Assembly: GCA_037144045.1 (NCBI GenBank)
Contig: JBAWXN010000001.1
Location: 134,744-198,743, forward strand
Length of the DNA stretch: 64,000 nucleotides
Direction of reading: 5' to 3'
Source of the DNA: a bacterium
Lineage (GTDB): Bacteria; Patescibacteriota; Minisyncoccia; Phycocordibacterales; UBA1006
The notes under the pieces are model-generated. The model worked only from the letters and a program-made list of their open reading frames with translations. It searched no databases and was not told where the DNA came from. The position numbers were made by a program, and so were the translations under genes. Shown in pieces: positions 27,070-32,780 of the stretch. How positions within the stretch are numbered: position 1 is the first letter of the stretch; each line of letters begins with the position of its first letter.

Positions 27070-27399
27070 TATTTTACGAATTTCAATTCCGACGACTCCG
27101 TGCTGCGCTTCTTCGTGGGGTGGATAGTACTTATGCATTTCAGTGGGATCATCATTTCCAACACCTCCAAAAGCGATTGGATCGAATGCCTTATATAAAT
27201 CTTTAAAAGTAGGGAAGTAGTGCAATGCGATAATTGTAGAATCTATACTTAGATGGGCGTCTTGAGCATGCACAAAAACAATAGTGTCACCTACAGTTAG
27301 TTGCTTTCTTTTTTCATCATTCAGGCGAATTTCAATAACCTTAGTTCCTTCTTGAATTTTCTGAAAAGGGGCAGGTTGTAAATGCATGGTATGGATCAT
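27067..27399 (-). CDS. ASCH (PUA-like) domain protein
   Basis: 110 aa. PFQKIQEGTKVIEIRLNDEKRKQLTVGDTIVFV fits the ASCH beta-barrel signature. Confidence 0.5.
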   Translation of the reverse strand: MIHTMHLQPAPFQKIQEGTKVIEIRLNDEKRKQLTVGDTIVFVHAQDAHLSIDSTIIALHYFPTFKDLYKAFDPIAFGGVGNDDPTEMHKYYPPHEEAQHGVVGIEIRKI

Positions 27400-27556
27400 A
27401 ATTGCTGCGATGTCTGGTCTTGAAACTAATCACACCAGATGTCATAAGGGTATTCTAGCACTTTCCCGTTTTCCAAACTAACGGCTTTGGGTCTATATAT
27501 AATAAAAGCCCTTTGTAGCATAAACATATAATCAAATATTTGATACAATGTGATAC

Positions 27557-28084
27557 ATGAAATTAGGAAGTGATACAAAGGAACGGCTCAAGCAGATCGT
27601 CAGGAACGCGGTAGCGCTCGACCCCATGATTTCCCTGCGAGACCTCCAAGCGGTGCTTCTCCAGAAAGGCATCAAGATCGGCAACCTCAATTCACTGGCA
27701 AGGATCAGGAAAGAACTGACCGAAGATGCCATAGAAGAAATGGATCGGCCGCAAGTGCTTAAGCGGTATGCAGATATGGAGGAACGGATGCGAGTGCTCC
27801 GAACGGAGCTCTTCAAGATTATCTACCCTGACGGCAAGAGCGGTGTCTATCCGAGCTACAGCGAACAGATATCTGCGATGAAGATATTGATGGAAAGCGA
27901 TATCAAGCTCTTCCGTGCGGGTCTTGAGATGGGTATCTATCGGAAGGACATGGCGAAAGGAAAGAAGTATACGAAAGAGGAAGAGTTGGCGATGCGGAAT
28001 AGGCCGTTGAACGCTGAGCATAGGAAAGCTATGCTAAAGGCATTCAAGAACTTTGGATTGATTCCGAAGGATGCGGAGATATAA
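27557..28084 (+). CDS. Hypothetical protein in a GC-rich islet (about 50% GC versus about 38% background)
   Basis: 175-aa charged helical protein. Its GC content is clearly higher than the flanks. No known motif. Confidence 0.5.
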   Translation: MKLGSDTKERLKQIVRNAVALDPMISLRDLQAVLLQKGIKIGNLNSLARIRKELTEDAIEEMDRPQVLKRYADMEERMRVLRTELFKIIYPDGKSGVYPSYSEQISAMKILMESDIKLFRAGLEMGIYRKDMAKGKKYTKEEELAMRNRPLNAEHRKAMLKAFKNFGLIPKDAEI

Positions 28085-28085
28085 A

Positions 28086-28115
28086 AAAGGCGATCATTGC
28101 TGACCGCCTTTATAA
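28086..28115. terminator. Bidirectional terminator between convergent genes
   Basis: AAAAAAGGCG atcattgctgac CGCCTTTATAAAA. Confidence 0.65.
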
Positions 28116-28127
28116 AATAGTGAACAT

Positions 28128-30248
28128 TTAAATTGTTCGCGTGTACTCTGTAAGTTCCTCAAAATTTTTAAAGTGAACATTTATACCAAGTTCTTCCTGG
28201 ATAATTGTATTCGCTTTAGTGATTGCCCTATCCAAATGCGGAACAGGTTCACTTTTCGGAATTTCATGAGACATCGCTTTTAGTTCCTCCCACGTATATC
28301 GTCCGCGGTTTGTCCACCACGGAAGACTCGAAGTGACTCCATACGCCCAATGTTCTCTGCATGATTGCTCAAGCAGATCACGAAGTGCATCAACCTTCTT
28401 GTTGCTTGCTGACAAATAACGAAAATCACGATTCAAGTGCAGCAGATGATCGTCTGGGAGAAGTTCAATATATTTGAAATTCCCATTTTTCTCATCAGGA
28501 GCATTTTTTGCAATCCGATAGCGGCTGCTTTTAATTGTCAGAATCGAGTCTCCGTACTTTTCAATAAATGAAAGCCACTTGAGCGTTTGATGCAAGGGTT
28601 CACCAGGCAATCCCACAATAATGAATATGTGAGTATGAATTCCTGCATTTTTTAAATTAGCAAGAATCTTTCCATAGTGATCTGGCTTGTTCCAACGCTT
28701 ATTCTCATTACCAAGCGTTTGAGTGTCCAGACTTTCCAATCCAATTTGCAAACCACGACAACCGGCATCATATAATTGATGACAGACATCAGGATCAAGT
28801 AAGTGGTGATCAGCTGTACTGTAGCAATACCATTCGGCTTTGTATCTATGAACTTTCAATTCTTCCCCAATTTTAAGCTGGGTTTGTATCGGAAGAATTT
28901 CATCGTAGAAATCAAAGCGGTGTCCGTTTGAAGCGATCATTTGCGAAACAATGTGTTTTGCAGATGAGGTTCTTGGCTTCCCAAGAAAAGTATCACTTCC
29001 TCCAGAAATCGAACAGAACTCGCATTGCATAAAGCAATTTGAAGCAGTGTAGAGTGGATAGACAGGCTCGGGAGACCATTGCGTTGCTCCCCCATCGTAT
29101 GAGGGCGTAGGCAGTAACTCAAATGGCATCGGAGTTTTGGCAGGCTTGTTCATCACAAGCTTTTTTCCGTCGCTCCAGACAGTACCAGAAGTAAGATTAG
29201 GTGAAAGATTTTCCGCCAGTTCAAGAATAGGTAGAAAGCCTTCCCTGTATACAATTGCGTCACAACAACGATTGAACAACTCAAAGAATTGCGGTTCGTT
29301 ATATGCTGTCAGTATGCGTGACCAGAAATTGCCCCCAAGGACAATCTTAGTCTCCGGTAAAGCCTCCTTGACCATAGAGGCAAGAATGAGTCCGGGAAAC
29401 AATTGCCGCTCGTCACCAATACTGATTCCATACAAATCGGGTCTGAATGAAAGGAGGTGCGGAATCTCGAGTGCGGTGAAATAGGGATACCAAATATTTG
29501 ATTCTCTATTATTTAGCGCGTTGAGAGCACCCTCAATCGTTCCGTCCTGATAGCTTGCCACATACACTACATTATTCCTTTCAACAGCAAACTTGTCTTG
29601 GGTGGGTACGCTTTTTGAAATTTCTTCAAAAAGTTTTCGAGCCCTATACCAATCATTAATCGTACTGTTCGGGTTTCTGACAATCCTTAATGCTTCAGCG
29701 GTTTTGCTTTTATCGTGAAGAGAAAGTAAGTACTCCAATCCAATAATATGGCCGTATCGTTGCGATACTTCATAATCGCCTTGCCGTAAAAGCGAGGTCA
29801 GATAAGAAATTCCGCTTGGGAAATGCCAAGGCGAAGATACTGGTGGATTGTTGAGAATAATTCTCCGCGATCTTCCAGCAGGAATGATAACAGCTAAAGA
29901 AAACTTTTCCGGTTTAAGGTACTCAATTTTCTTCAAATCAATTTTGATCTTCTTAATGGGAGTCACAGGATGACTAGGTAGGTTTGCGCCATACTCTGGC
30001 TGACCTCCAATAATCACTTCTTGTACTCCAGTGAAGATAATCTTGCCGTTACTAATCGAACCTTGTTCGCCAGTCTCCGGAACATAGTAGGTGTAAAAGC
30101 CGTGAAGCTTTCCATGGGTGTCTATGGTGAATGATGTCTCGGTTGAAAAACCGAAGCTACTCGCCAAAAACAACAACATAAGTGCAAATATTCCGACACC
30201 TTGTATCGTACTCTTTGCTTTTCGGTAAAGTTGAGATTTCGGTTTCAT
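28128..30248 (-). CDS. B12-binding radical SAM protein with an N-terminal membrane anchor and a long C-terminal extension
   Basis: N-terminal TM/signal segment (GIFALMLLFLASSFGFS). B12-binding-like segment (ILNNPPVSSPWHFPSGISYLTSLLRQGDYEV ... KIVLGGNFWS). Radical SAM CxxxCxxC (SNCFMQCEFCS). About 230-aa extension after the core. Total 706 aa. Confidence 0.7.
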   Translation of the reverse strand: MKPKSQLYRKAKSTIQGVGIFALMLLFLASSFGFSTETSFTIDTHGKLHGFYTYYVPETGEQGSISNGKIIFTGVQEVIIGGQPEYGANLPSHPVTPIKKIKIDLKKIEYLKPEKFSLAVIIPAGRSRRIILNNPPVSSPWHFPSGISYLTSLLRQGDYEVSQRYGHIIGLEYLLSLHDKSKTAEALRIVRNPNSTINDWYRARKLFEEISKSVPTQDKFAVERNNVVYVASYQDGTIEGALNALNNRESNIWYPYFTALEIPHLLSFRPDLYGISIGDERQLFPGLILASMVKEALPETKIVLGGNFWSRILTAYNEPQFFELFNRCCDAIVYREGFLPILELAENLSPNLTSGTVWSDGKKLVMNKPAKTPMPFELLPTPSYDGGATQWSPEPVYPLYTASNCFMQCEFCSISGGSDTFLGKPRTSSAKHIVSQMIASNGHRFDFYDEILPIQTQLKIGEELKVHRYKAEWYCYSTADHHLLDPDVCHQLYDAGCRGLQIGLESLDTQTLGNENKRWNKPDHYGKILANLKNAGIHTHIFIIVGLPGEPLHQTLKWLSFIEKYGDSILTIKSSRYRIAKNAPDEKNGNFKYIELLPDDHLLHLNRDFRYLSASNKKVDALRDLLEQSCREHWAYGVTSSLPWWTNRGRYTWEELKAMSHEIPKSEPVPHLDRAITKANTIIQEELGINVHFKNFEELTEYTRTI

Positions 30249-30405
30249 TATTTGAAGATTTTTTGTTAGTGAACATTTTTCGCATTATAACATAAATCAC
30301 TATCTGTTTCAAGGCTTCTGCGACCTCTGGTAGATTAACTTCCTTCTTAAAATTTGTGTAGTTGACTCTTCGACTCTTCTGCTCCGTATCTCTCTTCTCG
30401 CTAGA

Positions 30406-30461
30406 CTTCGTACATCGTTCCGGTATGTTCGTGTGTATGGACCAAACAACGATGTACGGAG
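30406..30461 (+). promoter_or_regulatory. 14-bp inverted repeat (1 mismatch) upstream of the recombinase gene; candidate recombination or regulatory site
   Basis: CTTCGTACATCGTT (30406-30419) ... AACGATGTACGGAG (30448-30461) with a 28-nt spacer. The 10-bp core GTACATCGTT / AACGATGTAC is perfect. Confidence 0.4.
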
Positions 30462-30472
30462 CCCAAATAGGC

Positions 30473-31759
30473 ATGACACCGGTACTACAGGCGGAACCAA
30501 TCCGATACTGCCTCTACGCCCGTAAATCAAGCGAGGCCGAAGAGAAGCAGGCACTCTCGATTGATTCTCAAATAAAGGAAATGCTTGCAATTGCCCAGCG
30601 CGATAACTTGAACATCATAGAGATGTATCGCGAATCTCACTCCGCGAAAGACTGCGGGCAACGGCCTGTGTTCAACAAACTGCTCATCGACATTCGCGAG
30701 GGAAAGTTTGACGGCATACTTGTCTGGCACCCCGACCGACTTTCACGAAATGCCGGAGATCTCGGAGCAATTGTTGATCTACTCGATCAGAAGAAATTGA
30801 TTGAGATCAGGACTTATAGCCAACGGTTCACCAATAATCCAAATGAAAAGTTTCTACTCATGATTCTCGGCTCACAAGCTAAGCTCGAGAATGATAATAA
30901 GAGCATCAATGTGAAGCGAGGATTGAAAACAAAATGCGAGATGGGACTGTGGCCGAGTGTCGCACCAACCGGATATTTAAACTCAAAGAATAGAGATCAG
31001 AAAGGCGTCATTTTTGTAGACCCGGATCGTGGATCAACAATCAAAGAAATCTTTACTCGAGTCGCCTATCAAGGAGCAAGCGGTAGAAAAATCTTCAAAT
31101 GGTTACGGGAAATCAAATTTGTAACGCGAACCGGAAAACCTCTGACCTTGAGCAATATCTACGTTATTTTGAATAATCACTTTTACCACGGCACATTTGA
31201 GTACCCTAAAGCGAGCGGTCGATGGTTTAGGGGTAAGCATGTACCACTAATTACTAAAGAGCTATTTGATGAGGCGCAAAAACAACTTCAATTACAAAGA
31301 AAAGTTAGAGGCAAGAATAAGGAGTTCGCTTTTACCAAACTCATGTCTTGCGGCCTTTGCGGATCTGGTATCACCGCTGAAGAGAAGTATAAAAATCTTA
31401 AAGATGGATCAGTGAACAAATATATTTATTATGGTTGTACACGTGCGCGAGATTCAAACTGCAAGGGTGGGTATGTTGAAGAAAAAGTATTGATTGCTCA
31501 ACTACTTGAGTTGATGGATAAGATTGATCTTGATAAGTCGGGTATCAAGAAAAAGCTTGAGGTGGAAATTGAGCGGCACAAGAAATTTCATTCAGGGATC
31601 ATGGGCAAACCAAACGCTGAATACTATGTCAAAGATGTAGACATACGAAATTATGCGAAATATCTTTTATCCGATGGTTCAATGTTTGAGAAGCGAGACT
31701 TACTTACTTGCCTGAAGAGCAGACTCTCTTTAGAGAATAAAATACTCACTTTAAATTAG
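30473..31759 (+). CDS. Large serine recombinase (resolvase/invertase catalytic domain + recombinase domain + zinc ribbon)
   Basis: YCLYARKSS (catalytic Ser), HPDRLSRNAGD, a central recombinase domain, and Cys pairs (CGLCGS ... CTRARDSNC) for the zinc ribbon. About 48% GC. Start at Met 30473; the ORF track starts at 30362. Confidence 0.88.
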   Translation: MTPVLQAEPIRYCLYARKSSEAEEKQALSIDSQIKEMLAIAQRDNLNIIEMYRESHSAKDCGQRPVFNKLLIDIREGKFDGILVWHPDRLSRNAGDLGAIVDLLDQKKLIEIRTYSQRFTNNPNEKFLLMILGSQAKLENDNKSINVKRGLKTKCEMGLWPSVAPTGYLNSKNRDQKGVIFVDPDRGSTIKEIFTRVAYQGASGRKIFKWLREIKFVTRTGKPLTLSNIYVILNNHFYHGTFEYPKASGRWFRGKHVPLITKELFDEAQKQLQLQRKVRGKNKEFAFTKLMSCGLCGSGITAEEKYKNLKDGSVNKYIYYGCTRARDSNCKGGYVEEKVLIAQLLELMDKIDLDKSGIKKKLEVEIERHKKFHSGIMGKPNAEYYVKDVDIRNYAKYLLSDGSMFEKRDLLTCLKSRLSLENKILTLN

Positions 31760-32664
31760 TGACCTGCGAGAAGTTTGGCAAGCTCAAATATTATTCCTTG
31801 AGCAATAACATTCCCAGCAACTCCTTCAAAGATAGTCTTTAAAGAAGTCAGTGCTATCTTGATTTTTGACTGCTCAGGGAGGTCTTTAGACATTTCTTCC
31901 TTTAGTTCCCTTGCTAGGGTTTGAACATTCTCTGTTTCTTCTACTTGTAGTTTTATCTCAGGAAGAAATTTTTGTATCTGATTCACTAAATCAATCACTT
32001 TTTCTTGAGAAAATCCGTTTGCTTGCTGGATGGAAACATTCGCCTGGTCACTAATACTTCCAATCGTTCCGGCAAAATTTTCTATATGACCAATACTATA
32101 ATTTGTATTAGCAATTTGAGCTTTCTCCTTATCTGTCTGGGAAAAAGAAATACCTTCTCCAACAACCCCTGCTTTTTCAAGTTTTAGAGCCGTATCTAGG
32201 ATGCGATTACGCACAGCATCTAATATCCCCGTAACAGCACTCCTGCCGATCATAAATCCTACATTCGTTTCGTGACCAATTGATTCCATAATGCTTTTCT
32301 TTACTGCATTACTGTAGCTGATTTCAAAAGTGCTAGAATCTGTTTTTACAAGATCATCAAGTTGTCCTACAGGTGAAGTGAGACCTCTTTTCGACATAAG
32401 CTCTCCAGCTTCAGAGTTACCAAATATAATAGGTTGCCAACCGTGATATGGATTCCACGCTTTCGGTTCTCCAGTAATGATCCGATACTCAGGGAGATCT
32501 GCATTGGAAGGAGCATCATAACCATTTAGCTCTTTTTCTATCCAATCACCAAATTCAGTTAAATCAAGTTTAACAGCAACAATTTTTGCTTTTCTTAGCA
32601 AGTCTGAAACCGAGTTGGTGGTATTTGCAGCTTCACTTTGTAATTCTTGGATTATTGATGACAT
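31756..32664 (-). CDS. AbiTii-like abortive-infection protein (putative)
   Basis: N-terminal MSSIIQELQSEAANTTNSVSDLLRKAKIVAVKLDLTEFGDWIEKELNGY matches my recollection of the AbiTii N-terminal signature. The C-terminal half is helical/coiled-coil. Start moved to the internal Met (32664), because the ORF track extension overlaps a tRNA. Confidence 0.35.
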   Translation of the reverse strand: MSSIIQELQSEAANTTNSVSDLLRKAKIVAVKLDLTEFGDWIEKELNGYDAPSNADLPEYRIITGEPKAWNPYHGWQPIIFGNSEAGELMSKRGLTSPVGQLDDLVKTDSSTFEISYSNAVKKSIMESIGHETNVGFMIGRSAVTGILDAVRNRILDTALKLEKAGVVGEGISFSQTDKEKAQIANTNYSIGHIENFAGTIGSISDQANVSIQQANGFSQEKVIDLVNQIQKFLPEIKLQVEETENVQTLARELKEEMSKDLPEQSKIKIALTSLKTIFEGVAGNVIAQGIIFELAKLLAGH

Positions 32665-32709
32665 GTTATTTTTTGACCCCTCTAGGTCCTTCGATACTAA
32701 ACTAAACTG

Positions 32710-32780
32710 CTGCCAGACTTGGACTCGAACCAAGATAAACGGTACCAGAAACCGTTGTCCTACCATTAGACGATCTGGCA
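32710..32780 (-). tRNA. tRNA-Gln (anticodon CUG)
   Basis: Minus-strand cloverleaf TGCCAGATCGTCTAATGGTAGGACAACGGTTTCTGGTACCGTTTATCTTGGTTCGAGTCCAAGTCTGGCA plus discriminator G. Anticodon loop TTCTGGT. Its 3' end faces the recombinase islet. Confidence 0.85.

What the first reader, a model, noticed from the sequence alone, without database searches (positions are those of the whole stretch)
28128..30248. Unusual architecture: signal/TM anchor + B12-binding domain + radical SAM core + about 230-aa C-terminal extension
Class B (cobalamin-dependent) radical SAM enzymes are typically cytoplasmic methyltransferases or RiPP/antibiotic tailoring enzymes. This one has an N-terminal hydrophobic anchor and about 100 extracytoplasmic-looking residues before the B12 domain (INPP-like ILNNPPVSSPWHFPSGISYL). 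The canonical CFMQCEFC cluster sits near residue 430, and a long extension follows the core. Its position on a mobile islet next to an Abi-like gene suggests a non-housekeeping role, such as nucleic-acid or peptide modification, possibly defence-associated. No obvious precursor-peptide ORF lies adjacent, although small ORFs were not searched exhaustively.
Basis: partly seen in the sequence, partly recalled or inferred. Interest (0 to 1): 0.6.

Follow-up and report, generated by a model that had tools for sequence, protein, structure and literature searches.

The report
Membrane-anchored B12-type radical SAM, mobile cargo
This gene encodes a real but uncharacterised cobalamin-type radical SAM enzyme with an unusual export-like membrane anchor; it belongs to a small family found mostly in ultra-small CPR bacteria, and here it is carried as cargo on a 5.3-kb integrative element, so its enzyme class is clear but its substrate is not.

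Summary
The 706-aa ORF (28128-30248, minus strand) is real. It is a radical SAM enzyme with the class-B (cobalamin-type) build: Rossmann domain, rSAM barrel with CxxxCxxC at residues 405-412 (not ~430), and a C-terminal helical domain. The AF2 model has pLDDT 92, and its best PDB matches are TsrM, CysS, OxsB, TokK, MgmA and AprD4. The 'C-terminal extension' is the standard helical domain of this class.

The unusual part is the N-terminus: a Sec-type signal/anchor plus a ~75-aa beta-sandwich. This module is present in 39 of 68 aligned family members and absent from otherwise 45-55% identical short forms.

The family is small and reaches no curated NCBIfam cutoff. It is mostly Patescibacteria/CPR, with outliers in Woesearchaeota and actinomycetes. 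It has no conserved operon and no precursor peptide.

In this window the gene is monocistronic, with its own promoter and terminator. It sits in the variable cargo slot of a serine-recombinase element (27403-32712) inserted at the 3' end of tRNA-Gln, next to AbiTii.

The non-housekeeping, mobile reading is supported for this copy. A defence role rests only on association, and a RiPP role is not supported. Substrate and membrane topology remain unknown.

The parts
27403..32712 (.). About 5.3-kb integrative element (serine-recombinase type) that carries the rSAM gene. Both ends have a TGCTG core (27403-27407 and 32708-32712).
   Evidence: blastn of the window against L001-L003 gives a shared block at 27403-31765 (85% identity) plus an identical 41-nt end at 32672-32712, with different outer flanks. 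The junction sequences were read. GC3 of the element's genes differs from the flanks.
27557..28084 (+). 175-aa element-end protein with no known family. It is a hallmark of this element family and may be a regulator or a recombination directionality factor.
   Evidence: No Pfam, NCBIfam, PADLOC or PHROG hit. GC3 is 0.63 against 0.26-0.36 in the flanks. Its 11 homologs always lie at one end of serine-recombinase elements with differing cargo.
28086..28111 (-). Intrinsic terminator (11-bp stem, then a T run) just after the rSAM stop codon. It lies between the two convergent genes.
   Evidence: sequence.
28128..30248 (-). The 706-aa class-B-type radical SAM protein (whole ORF including the stop codon).
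30144..30212 (-). N-terminal hydrophobic signal/anchor helix (residues ~13-35), preceded by a K/R-rich n-region.
   Evidence: Hydropathy and flanking charge; the AF2 model has a helix at 2-30; family statistics.
29934..30155 (-). Small beta-sandwich module (residues 32-105), followed by a basic low-confidence linker (110-124).
   Evidence: AF2 models. No significant fold match. The module is deleted in frame in P0002.
29139..29864 (-). Cobalamin-type Rossmann domain (residues 129-370). It has a helical insert (166-268), a near-invariant DERQ loop (279-282) after beta3, an invariant GG (305-306) after beta4, and a beta-hairpin at 356-366.
   Evidence: The HMM alignment to TokK covers beta4 and the GG motif. 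The class-1 description comes from PMC13331322.
28449..29060 (-). Radical SAM partial TIM barrel (residues ~397-600).
   Evidence: Pfam PF04055 at 403-561; model; Foldseek and HMM matches.
29013..29036 (-). CFMQCEFC, the CxxxCxxC [4Fe-4S]/SAM cluster motif (C405, C409, C412).
   Evidence: Invariant in 68 of 68 aligned sequences.
28131..28403 (-). C-terminal helical domain (residues 616-706), with near-invariant C630 and a WWxNR motif at 644-648.
   Evidence: Equivalent to the C-terminal helical bundle of class-1 Cbl-rSAMs.
30284..30312 (-). Near-consensus sigma-70 promoter of the rSAM gene: TTGAAA, 17-nt spacer, TG-n-TATAAT.
   Evidence: 11 of 12 matches plus the extended -10 TG; sequence.
30268..30278 (.). 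AGTGAACATTT 11-mer at the predicted transcription start. Exact copies also lie at 28119-28129 and 28172-28182. It may be an operator; its role is unexplained.
   Evidence: Three exact copies in 64 kb, all around this gene. Only the 5' copy is conserved in L001.
30362..31759 (+). Large serine recombinase (Resolvase + Recombinase + Zn_ribbon_recom). The true start is probably the ATG at 30473.
   Evidence: Pfam E-values of 4e-25, 7e-15 and 2e-7; CcrB-like and XisF-like NCBIfam hits below cutoff.
31756..32667 (-). AbiTii-family abortive-infection protein (303 aa from the internal ATG; the longer listed ORF overlaps the tRNA).
   Evidence: Pfam PF18864 at 3e-45; PADLOC AbiTii at 2e-47 and AbiTi at 7e-9. 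This allele differs from the 396-aa one in L001-3.
32709..32780 (-). tRNA-Gln(CTG). Its 3' end is the integration site (attR side).
   Evidence: ARAGORN and Rfam at 58.9 bits; junction read.

Best explanation
The ORF encodes a functional, membrane-tethered radical SAM enzyme of the cobalamin-type (class B, 'class 1') architecture. It belongs to a small, uncharacterised, horizontally mobile family centred on Patescibacteria/CPR.

Mechanism, inferred from the class: the [4Fe-4S] cluster on C405/C409/C412 reductively cleaves SAM to a 5'-deoxyadenosyl radical, which abstracts a hydrogen from the substrate. The preceding Rossmann domain most likely holds a corrinoid that delivers a methyl group, or otherwise assists the radical chemistry, at an unactivated C or P centre. 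This domain has an invariant GG after beta4 and a near-invariant DERQ loop after beta3, whose Arg281 falls at the position of TokK Trp76 and TsrM Arg69.

The gene stands alone. It has no conserved partner enzyme, no precursor peptide and no SPASM domain. Its product is held at the membrane by an N-terminal anchor. The substrate is therefore most likely a non-peptide molecule available at or near the membrane or envelope, or a common small metabolite.

In this genome the gene is accessory cargo. It occupies the variable slot of a 5.3-kb large-serine-recombinase element integrated into the 3' end of tRNA-Gln(CTG), and it is transcribed from its own near-consensus promoter to its own terminator.

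Shown: the ORF, motifs, fold class, family distribution, element boundaries and cargo-slot variability. Inferred: cobalamin use, methyl transfer, membrane-proximal non-peptide substrate, and cytoplasmic orientation of the catalytic domains.
For: Enzyme class:
- Pfam Radical_SAM scores above its cutoff.
- The CxxxCxxC is invariant in 68 sequences.
- The AF2 model has pLDDT 92, with the domain order helix, beta-sandwich, Rossmann, barrel, helical domain.
- Foldseek top hits are all class-B enzymes: TsrM, CysS, OxsB, TokK, MgmA, AprD4, at E 1e-16 to 1e-12.
- The profile search against PDB sequences finds AprD4, TokK, MgmA, CysS, OxsB and TsrM.
- Weak NCBIfam hits are all to B12-rSAM families.
- PF02310 is recorded on several homologs.
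- The class-1 domain plan and the role of the loop after beta3 come from PMC13331322.

Stand-alone, non-peptide:
- No operon is conserved in more than 35 loci.
- No conserved short ORF is present.
- Only 3-5 other conserved Cys residues exist.

Anchor:
-. The anchor is retained when the beta-sandwich is deleted in P0002.

Mobile cargo:
-.
- Own promoter and terminator.

Regulated accessory gene elsewhere:
- A divergent TrmB-type regulator lies 110-230 bp upstream in at least 8 CPR lineages.
Against: - No Pfam B12-binding hit on the query itself.
- The closest sequence match in the core is AprD4, a member of this fold class that works without cobalamin (own knowledge of AprD4).
- CPR bacteria are not known to make corrinoids (own knowledge).
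- The N-terminal signal obeys the positive-inside rule for an N-in/C-out orientation, which would put the catalytic domains outside the cytoplasm, where an Fe-S/SAM enzyme should not work.
- Homologs 54% identical occur in archaea (Woesearchaeota), whose lipids and walls differ, which argues against a bacterial-envelope-specific substrate.
- In actinomycetes the homolog is linked to a tRNA-Leu-like RNA and a GCS2 ligase, hinting at quite different chemistry.
- No experiment bears on substrate or product.
Confidence: 0.5

Rival explanations
1. A cobalamin-independent radical enzyme that keeps a vestigial B12-type Rossmann domain, as AprD4 does. It would carry out a dehydration or rearrangement, possibly on a sugar-like substrate, rather than a methylation.
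For: AprD4 is the best sequence match, both for the single sequence (E 2e-5) and for the family profile (E 3e-13). There is no PF02310 hit on the query. TrmB-family regulators, which are sugar-sensing in characterised cases, are the only recurrent CPR neighbour. Sugar-metabolism genes lie next to the gene in Uhrbacteria (G6PD, transketolase and transaldolase directly downstream). CPR organisms lack corrinoid synthesis (own knowledge).
Against: The top structural matches are cobalamin-binding enzymes. The GG after beta4 and the loop after beta3 are invariant or near-invariant, which suggests a retained ligand site. The AprD4 match covers only the rSAM core, not the Rossmann part.
Confidence: 0.22
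2. A single-gene defence or counter-defence effector carried by mobile elements, for example one that modifies a nucleotide, nucleic acid or envelope receptor to block phage or competing symbionts.
For: In this window it fills the cargo slot that in sister elements holds AbiEii plus an Hsp70-like gene, APH-type kinases or unknown genes. AbiTii lies beside the recombinase. The distribution is patchy and HGT-like across CPR, DPANN and actinomycetes. GC3 is atypical in 5 of 9 actinomycete loci. Tyrosine integrases lie 76-616 bp away in two other loci.
Against: No PADLOC model hits it. Phage genomes hold no homolog, and plasmids hold only distant ones at <=31% identity. Most family members lie among housekeeping genes with no defence neighbours. 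The TrmB pairing looks like metabolic regulation.
Confidence: 0.13
3. An RNA- or aminoacyl-tRNA-directed enzyme. The family would act on a tRNA or tRNA-like RNA, or on an amino acid carried by one.
For: In 9 of 11 actinomycete loci a conserved ~90-nt tRNA-Leu-like RNA lies immediately next to the homolog, whatever the other flanking genes. It has an aberrant anticodon arm and compensatory changes at 7 pairs. A GCS2 carboxylate-amine ligase is a second partner in 5 of these loci. A substrate common to bacteria and archaea would fit the family's distribution.
Against: The covariance model finds no equivalent RNA in the window or in CPR loci. tRNA proximity in CPR loci is about what chance predicts (my estimate). 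A membrane anchor is hard to reconcile with an RNA substrate. The RNA could instead be a relic of an integration site.
Confidence: 0.08
4. A truly exported or surface-exposed enzyme. The N-terminal sequence would be a working Sec signal or type II anchor, and the catalytic domains would act outside the cytoplasmic membrane, for example at the symbiont-host interface.
For: Signal-peptide anatomy in 39 of 68 members: positive n-region, uncharged h-region of 13-26 aa, acidic or neutral flank, and often small residues at -3/-1. There is no second membrane-spanning segment. The beta-sandwich directly after the helix resembles periplasmic modules such as MmpS, although not significantly.
Against: Radical SAM chemistry needs a cytoplasm-assembled [4Fe-4S] cluster, SAM and a low-potential reductant. 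Sec exports unfolded chains, and only 2 of 39 members have a twin-arginine. Short forms 45-55% identical have no signal at all, so the same core works in the cytoplasm.
Confidence: 0.05
5. A RiPP or antibiotic-tailoring class-B methyltransferase whose precursor or cluster partners were missed.
For: Weak hits to TIGR03975 (RiPP C-methyltransferase, E 1e-11) and ApyD. CysS and TokK are among the best structural matches.
Against: Scores are far below the cutoffs (43.8 against 281.85). No conserved short ORF is present in ~30 loci. There are no RRE or SPASM features and no biosynthetic neighbours. The gene is monocistronic here.
Confidence: 0.02

Closest known systems
Class-1 cobalamin-dependent radical SAM enzymes (TsrM, TokK, CysS, OxsB; class B rSAM)
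   Same: The same domain order: Rossmann Cbl-type domain with a beta-hairpin after strand 5, the rSAM barrel with CxxxCxxC, then a C-terminal helical domain. They are the best Foldseek matches at E~1e-16, and HMM matches extend into the Rossmann beta4-GG region. OxsB also carries an extra N-terminal domain.
   Different: Only 12-15% identity. No curated model is reached. The Rossmann domain has a ~100-aa helical insert (166-268). There is an N-terminal signal/anchor plus beta-sandwich. The gene is stand-alone rather than a member of a biosynthetic cluster. Cobalamin binding is untested.
AprD4 (radical SAM 1,2-diol dehydratase of apramycin biosynthesis, PDB 6fd2)
   Same: The closest sequence relative with a solved structure (E 2e-5 for the single sequence, 3e-13 for the profile). 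It has the same two-domain fold class.
   Different: AprD4 is a soluble 457-aa cluster enzyme that acts with a partner reductase on an aminoglycoside. The match covers only the core (query 458-565). NF033070 scores 26 bits against a cutoff of 500.
PhpK-type P-methyltransferases, TIGR03975 RiPP C-methyltransferases, and HpnJ/HpnR hopanoid rSAMs
   Same: These are the best-scoring curated families, and all are B12-rSAMs. HpnR and other lipid-modifying B12-rSAMs give a precedent for membrane-lipid substrates (own knowledge; archaeal lipid B12-rSAMs are listed).
   Different: All scores are 5- to 25-fold below the family cutoffs. No phosphonate, RiPP or hopanoid genes are nearby.
SCCmec-like and other large-serine-recombinase integrative islets
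   Same: A large serine recombinase with Resolvase/Recombinase/Zn-ribbon domains (CcrB-like, E 1e-39, below cutoff), short core repeats at both ends, insertion next to a conserved gene's 3' end (here a tRNA), and swappable accessory cargo.
   Different: Only 5.3 kb, in a CPR chromosome. The cargo is an rSAM plus AbiTii. A 175-aa protein of unknown family marks the far end of the element.

Membership tests
Radical SAM superfamily (PF04055) | CxxxCxxC motif that ligates the [4Fe-4S] cluster | tested here: met
   C405/C409/C412 are invariant in 68 of 68 aligned sequences.
Radical SAM superfamily (PF04055) | Profile score above Pfam's gathering threshold | tested here: met
   39.3 bits against 29.5, residues 403-561.
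Radical SAM superfamily (PF04055) | Partial TIM-barrel fold around the motif | tested here: met
   The AF2 model (pLDDT 92) has alternating beta/alpha elements at 397-600. Foldseek matches many solved rSAM barrels. This is a predicted structure, not an experimental one.
Radical SAM superfamily (PF04055) | Reductive cleavage of SAM | not testable with these tools
   Needs anaerobic biochemistry.
Class B / class-1 cobalamin-dependent rSAM | N-terminal Rossmann-type Cbl-binding domain directly preceding the rSAM domain | tested here: met
   Model residues 129-370. The top Foldseek hits TsrM, CysS, OxsB and TokK are aligned over more than 600 columns. The TokK HMM alignment includes beta4 and the GG motif.
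Class B / class-1 cobalamin-dependent rSAM | Pfam B12-binding (PF02310) sequence signature | tested here: inconclusive
   No hit on the query at E<=0.1. PF02310 is recorded for the homologs P0008, P0020, P0062 and P0076.
Class B / class-1 cobalamin-dependent rSAM | C-terminal helical domain after the barrel | tested here: met
   Helices at 616-703; class description in PMC13331322.
Class B / class-1 cobalamin-dependent rSAM | Actual binding and use of cobalamin | not testable with these tools
   AprD4 shows that this fold can lack Cbl. The placement of Arg281 under the cobalt is an inference by offset from the TokK alignment.
PhpK family (TIGR04479), RiPP C-methyltransferase (TIGR03975), HpnJ, HpnR, ApyD, AprD4 (NCBIfam equivalogs and subfamilies) | Score at or above the curated cutoff | tested here: not met
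   68.6 against 600; 43.8 against 281.85; 38.9 against 577.6; 26 against 650; 25 against 750; 26.4 against 500.
RiPP-maturing rSAM | Adjacent precursor peptide gene, or an RRE or SPASM domain | tested here: not met
   No conserved ORF of 18-90 aa within 700 bp of the gene in CPR loci. The intergenic gaps in the window are 43 and 113 bp. The only conserved Cys residues are C475, C497 and C630.
Known anti-phage defence proteins (PADLOC-DB v2) | Match to a defence-system model | tested here: not met
   No PADLOC hit for the rSAM at E<=0.1. The neighbouring gene hits AbiTii and AbiTi.
Housekeeping rSAMs (HemN-type, MiaB/RimO-type, YgiQ/UPF0313 as annotated by JGI) | Family-specific profile or accessory domains (HemN_C, UPF0004/TRAM, Radical_SAM_N/DUF3362) | tested here: not met
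   Only PF04055 is found. A HemN-like model scores 12 bits against 504. MiaB and RimO appear only as lower-ranked generic fold matches.
Large serine recombinase integrative element | Resolvase + Recombinase + zinc-ribbon recombinase; defined ends with a short core repeat; the same element in different flanks | tested here: met
   (TGCTG at both ends; the flanks in L001, L002 and the window differ). Excision activity is not testable here.

The most novel reading that the evidence does not exclude
The long-form proteins are true membrane-topology oddities. Either a cofactor-rich class-B radical SAM enzyme is displayed outside the cytoplasmic membrane of episymbiotic CPR cells, acting on the envelope or on the host surface. 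Or it is a new kind of mobile single-gene accessory or defence function based on B12-type radical chemistry, shuttled between CPR bacteria, DPANN archaea and actinomycetes. Actinomycetes are known hosts of Saccharibacteria (own knowledge).
Probability: 0.1. Interest if true: 0.85.

Novelty: new variant of a known kind. Interest (0 to 1): 0.45.

Why it matters
Class-B radical SAM enzymes carry out some of the hardest alkylations known, and most of the ~10^5 known sequences have no assigned function. This family adds three features.

1. An export-type signal/anchor sits on an enzyme whose cofactors demand the cytoplasm. This is a clean, testable topology puzzle.
2. It is a compact, self-contained gene that moves between ultra-small symbionts (CPR, DPANN) and actinomycetes, here caught inside a defined 5.3-kb integrative element. 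This suggests a portable single-enzyme trait.
3. Its lineage-specific partners could lead to a substrate: TrmB regulators in CPR, and a non-decoding tRNA-Leu-like RNA plus a GCS2 ligase in actinomycetes. The cultured actinomycete homologs (Actinomadura, Streptomyces lilacinus, Kitasatospora purpeofusca) make the family experimentally tractable even though CPR organisms are not.

If the function turns out to be an ordinary methylation of a common metabolite, the finding is a useful annotation but not a surprise.

Tried and rejected
- Fold search of the N-terminal module alone gave no match better than E 0.4. It is a generic small beta-sandwich.
- A precursor-peptide search across ~30 loci found nothing conserved in CPR.
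- PADLOC and PHROGs gave no meaningful hit for the rSAM or the 175-aa ORF.
- A tblastn search against phage genomes found nothing, and against plasmids only <=31% identity.
- I tested whether the outer ~2,600 relatives (E<1e-30) belong to a named family. None reaches any NCBIfam cutoff.
- An NJ tree meant to polarise CPR-to-actinomycete transfer shows the actinomycete sequences as one clade, but the deep branching is star-like, so the direction is unresolved. GC3 is only suggestive, and my neighbour set was pre-filtered for high GC3.
- I considered tRNA proximity as a general island signature for the family. About 7 of 30 CPR/DPANN loci have a tRNA within 2.5 kb, which is roughly the chance expectation for ~1-Mb genomes, so I dropped it.
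- A covariance model of the actinomycete tRNA-like RNA found no counterpart in the window or in CPR loci.
- I tested AGTGAACATTT as an att or operator site. Only one of the three copies is conserved in the sister island.
- I tested the second hydrophobic patch before the Rossmann domain as a possible second membrane span. It is only ~8 residues long.
- Literature searches for this family, for secreted rSAMs, and for the GCS2/tRNA-like module found no prior description.
Full report
**Observation**

The window holds a 706-aa ORF at 28128-30248 on the minus strand. Pfam finds a Radical_SAM domain at residues 403-561, at 39.3 bits against a cutoff of 29.5. NCBIfam gives only sub-threshold hits, and all of them are to B12-binding radical SAM families: PhpK, the TIGR03975 RiPP C-methyltransferase, HpnJ, HpnR, AprD4 and ApyD. 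PADLOC gives no hit for this protein.

**Anatomy**

An AlphaFold2 model built on a 68-sequence alignment is confident, with mean pLDDT 92 and pTM 0.81. It shows the following parts:
- a long N-terminal helix (2-30)
- an eight-strand beta-sandwich (32-105)
- a low-confidence basic linker (110-124)
- a Rossmann domain (129-370) with a ~100-aa helical insert and a beta-hairpin after strand 5
- the rSAM barrel (397 to ~600)
- a helical C-terminal domain (616-703)

Foldseek against the PDB ranks the cobalamin-dependent radical SAM enzymes first. TsrM, CysS, OxsB, TokK, MgmA and the cobalamin-free AprD4 score E 1e-16 to 1e-12 at 12-15% identity. A family profile against PDB sequences finds the same set, led by AprD4 (3e-13) and TokK (8e-11).

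A recent review describes exactly this three-part plan as 'class 1' and notes that OxsB carries an additional N-terminal domain (PMC13331322). The plan is a Rossmann Cbl domain with a hairpin after strand 5, the RS domain, and a C-terminal helical bundle.

Two features suggest a retained cofactor site. The GG after beta4 (G305-G306) is invariant and aligns with TokK's VVAGG. The near-invariant DERQ loop (279-282) follows beta3, which is where class-1 enzymes place the residue beneath the cobalt. By offset from the TokK alignment, Arg281 corresponds to TokK Trp76, and TsrM uses Arg69 at that position.

**The family**

The word-indexed search found 84 relatives, nearly all labelled Patescibacteria/CPR, at 41-93% identity. 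The exhaustive profile search of 1.84 billion representatives shows about a dozen 50%-identity clusters scoring above ~590 bits. Scores then drop sharply into a large halo of generic, unnamed class-B rSAMs: 2,639 proteins at E<1e-30, including giants of 1,000-2,300 aa. None of ten sampled halo proteins reaches an NCBIfam cutoff.

A scan of GTDB species representatives names the hosts:
- Saccharibacteria-, Berkel-, Moran-, Zambryskii-, Pacei-, Uhr- and Doudna-bacteria and other Parcubacteria
- two Woesearchaeota, at 54% identity
- cultured actinomycetes at 45-49% identity, which I did not expect: Actinomadura logoneensis and A. roseirufa, Streptomyces lilacinus, Streptomyces sp. CA-251387, Spirillospora, Kitasatospora purpeofusca, plus Streptosporangiaceae MAGs

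The actinomycete sequences form one clade, but the deep branching is unresolved. In five of nine actinomycete loci the gene's GC3 (0.66-0.80) is well below that of the neighbours I kept (~0.9), which is compatible with acquisition. That neighbour set was pre-filtered for high GC3.

**The N-terminal module is the unusual part**

Of the 68 aligned members, 39 are 'long' forms of about 690 aa and the rest are 'short' forms of about 580 aa. Short forms begin directly at the ILNYPPVSSxWHLP motif. The Uhrbacteria, Woesearchaeota and actinomycete members are among the short forms.

The long forms have signal-peptide anatomy:
- an n-region with a median net charge of +2 (+5 in the query)
- an uncharged h-region of 13-26 residues, median 16
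- a neutral or acidic flank after it
- a twin-arginine in only 2 of 39

After the signal comes a divergent beta-sandwich with a conserved 'GW…PVKPKP…LRK…KPEP' pattern. It has no significant structural match. The best Foldseek E-value is 0.4, and MmpS5-like modules (a TM helix plus a periplasmic sandwich) appear only at E~1. A second hydrophobic patch lies just before the Rossmann domain, but it is only ~8 residues long and cannot span a membrane.

P0002, 77% identical to the query, is a natural in-frame deletion of exactly the beta-sandwich. It keeps the anchor and the catalytic domains. The anchor is therefore the retained feature and the sandwich is dispensable.

By the positive-inside rule everything after the helix should be outside the membrane. 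Yet an Fe-S/SAM/corrinoid enzyme is expected to need the cytoplasm, and the same core works without any signal in the short forms. I could not resolve this contradiction. I assume a membrane-tethered enzyme with cytoplasmic catalytic domains, and I keep true export as a low-probability rival. Reductive dehalogenases give a precedent for corrinoid/Fe-S enzymes that are either Tat-exported or carry N-terminal helices (PMC6797604, listed).

**Genomic setting in the window**

Comparison with three metagenome contigs that carry a 93%-identical homolog (L001-L003) shows a shared block at window 27403-31765 (85% DNA identity). There is also an identical 41-nt end at 32672-32712, and the outer flanks differ. 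Both ends carry a TGCTG core. On the left it reads ataat-TGCTG-cgatg at 27403-27407. On the right it reads aaac-TGCTG-ccagac at 32708-32712 and overlaps the 3' end of tRNA-Gln(CTG) at 32709-32780.

The element is about 5.3 kb and contains four genes:
- a 175-aa ORF of unknown family (27557-28084, +; GC3 0.63 against 0.26-0.36 in flanking housekeeping genes)
- the rSAM gene (-)
- a large serine recombinase (30362-31759, +; Resolvase, Recombinase and Zn-ribbon domains)
- an AbiTii gene (31756-32667, -)

The AbiTii allele differs from the one in L001-3. The rest of the window is ordinary chromosome: DnaK, two PBPs, aminoacyl-tRNA synthetases, TopA, and FtsE/FtsX.

The rSAM gene is a self-contained unit. 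It has a near-consensus promoter (TTGAAA, 17 nt, TG-n-TATAAT, at 30312-30284) and an 11-bp-stem terminator (28111-28086).

**The cargo slot**

The 175-aa protein has 11 homologs. In three further contigs it again marks one end of an element, with a large serine recombinase a few kilobases away, and the genes in between differ each time:
- two unknown genes plus an HTH regulator (L061)
- AbiEii, a 214-aa protein, an Hsp70-like protein and an HTH regulator, in a region that also holds KwaB (L063)
- two APH-type kinases (L064)

In this window the rSAM gene occupies that variable slot. This supports 'accessory, non-housekeeping' for this copy and gives a guilt-by-association argument for defence, but nothing stronger.

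**Context elsewhere argues against a dedicated defence or RiPP role**

I clustered neighbours across more than 35 distinct loci. No operon is conserved. The 62%-identical relative sits between signal peptidase I and peptidyl-tRNA hydrolase. No short ORF is conserved beside the gene in CPR loci.

The only recurrent CPR neighbour is a ~266-aa TrmB-family regulator, divergently transcribed 110-230 bp upstream in at least eight lineages. In one genome a second B12-rSAM is paired with a TrmB regulator in the same way. Tyrosine integrases lie 76 bp and 616 bp from the gene in two loci. Phage genomes hold no homolog, and plasmids hold only distant ones.

**An unexpected lead from actinomycetes**

In five actinomycete genomes a GCS2-family ligase lies directly upstream of the homolog. 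It resembles plant-type glutamate-cysteine ligase and scores below the curated cutoff.

In nine of eleven actinomycete loci, with or without the ligase, a ~90-nt tRNA-like gene abuts the rSAM gene. The nine copies are homologous. They have a tRNA-Leu-type acceptor stem, D-arm, long variable arm and T-arm, with compensatory changes at seven base pairs. Their anticodon arm is aberrant, with a 6-8-bp stem and a 4-7-nt loop. Only one copy passes Rfam's tRNA threshold.

Bacterial LeuRS does not read the anticodon (own knowledge). Such an RNA could therefore be charged with leucine yet not decode. A covariance model finds no counterpart in the window or in CPR loci. The Woesearchaeota neighbour is a normal tRNA-Leu(UAG). 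This is a lead for the family's chemistry, not evidence about the window's gene.

**Verdict**

The protein is a genuine class-B-type radical SAM enzyme from an unnamed, small and mobile family, and here it is cargo on a defined integrative element.

Its most likely mode of action is SAM-derived radical chemistry, probably corrinoid-assisted methylation, on a non-peptide substrate at the membrane. The substrate, cobalamin use and topology are inferred, not shown. I found no published description of the family.

I rate it a new variant of a known kind, with moderate interest.

Noticed in passing
L029 7848-7935, L031 6871-6960, L032 7530-7619, L033 7852-7938, L034 7689-7778, L036 6560-6653, L037 7572-7662, L038 7685-7774, L052 7868-7958: A conserved ~90-nt tRNA-Leu-like RNA lies immediately next to the rSAM homolog in 9 of 11 actinomycete loci. 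It has the type-II shape with compensatory changes at 7 pairs, but its anticodon arm is aberrant. It could be a non-decoding, chargeable tRNA mimic, or a relic of an integration site.
   Followed up: partly
L031 5381-6751, L032 6062-7516, L034 6259-7647, L037 6115-7446, L038 6225-7631: A GCS2-family carboxylate-amine ligase (glutamate-cysteine-ligase-like, below the curated cutoff) is encoded directly upstream of the rSAM homolog in five actinomycetes. It is the only conserved protein neighbour there.
   Followed up: partly
L061, L063, L064 (element family); window 27557-28084: The 175-aa protein of unknown family marks one end of a family of small serine-recombinase elements whose cargo varies: AbiEii plus an Hsp70-like gene, APH-type kinases, unknown genes, or the rSAM. 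It may be a new accessory-gene shuttle in CPR-like genomes.
   Followed up: partly
window 28119-28129, 28172-28182, 30268-30278: The 11-mer AGTGAACATTT occurs exactly three times in 64 kb, and all three copies lie around the rSAM gene, one of them at the predicted transcription start. Only that 5' copy is conserved in the sister island L001.
   Followed up: partly
L002 593-1973: In one metagenome contig a diversity-generating-retroelement-like pair (a reverse transcriptase, RVT_1, and a bAvd-like gene) lies immediately beyond the AbiTii end of the same island.
   Followed up: no
L001 2262-3545, L003 2598-3881: In the sister islands the serine recombinase is called as two genes: an 82-aa Resolvase part and a 300-aa Recombinase part. 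This suggests a frameshifted, possibly immobilised copy. The window's copy is one intact ORF.
   Followed up: no
L004 8001-9890 (P0002): A 77%-identical homolog carries a clean in-frame deletion of the whole beta-sandwich module and keeps the membrane anchor. It sits between a GT2 glycosyltransferase plus an unknown gene and a SAM-dependent methyltransferase.
   Followed up: yes
L009 5789-12496: Three TrmB-family regulators alternate with two different B12-type radical SAM genes within 7 kb of one Saccharibacteria-labelled genome, as if each rSAM had its own local regulator.
   Followed up: no
window 27397-27407: The left end of the element (TGCTG at 27403) lies only 3 nt upstream of the ASCH-domain gene's start codon (27399, minus strand). 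That gene's ribosome-binding site and promoter must therefore now lie inside the element.
   Followed up: no
L006 570-5130 and L011 2607-15107: In two unrelated CPR loci the rSAM gene lies within a few kilobases of copper-homeostasis genes (CsoR-like repressor, Cu-ATPase, HMA/DsbD, cupredoxin). I did not test whether this is more than chance.
   Followed up: no
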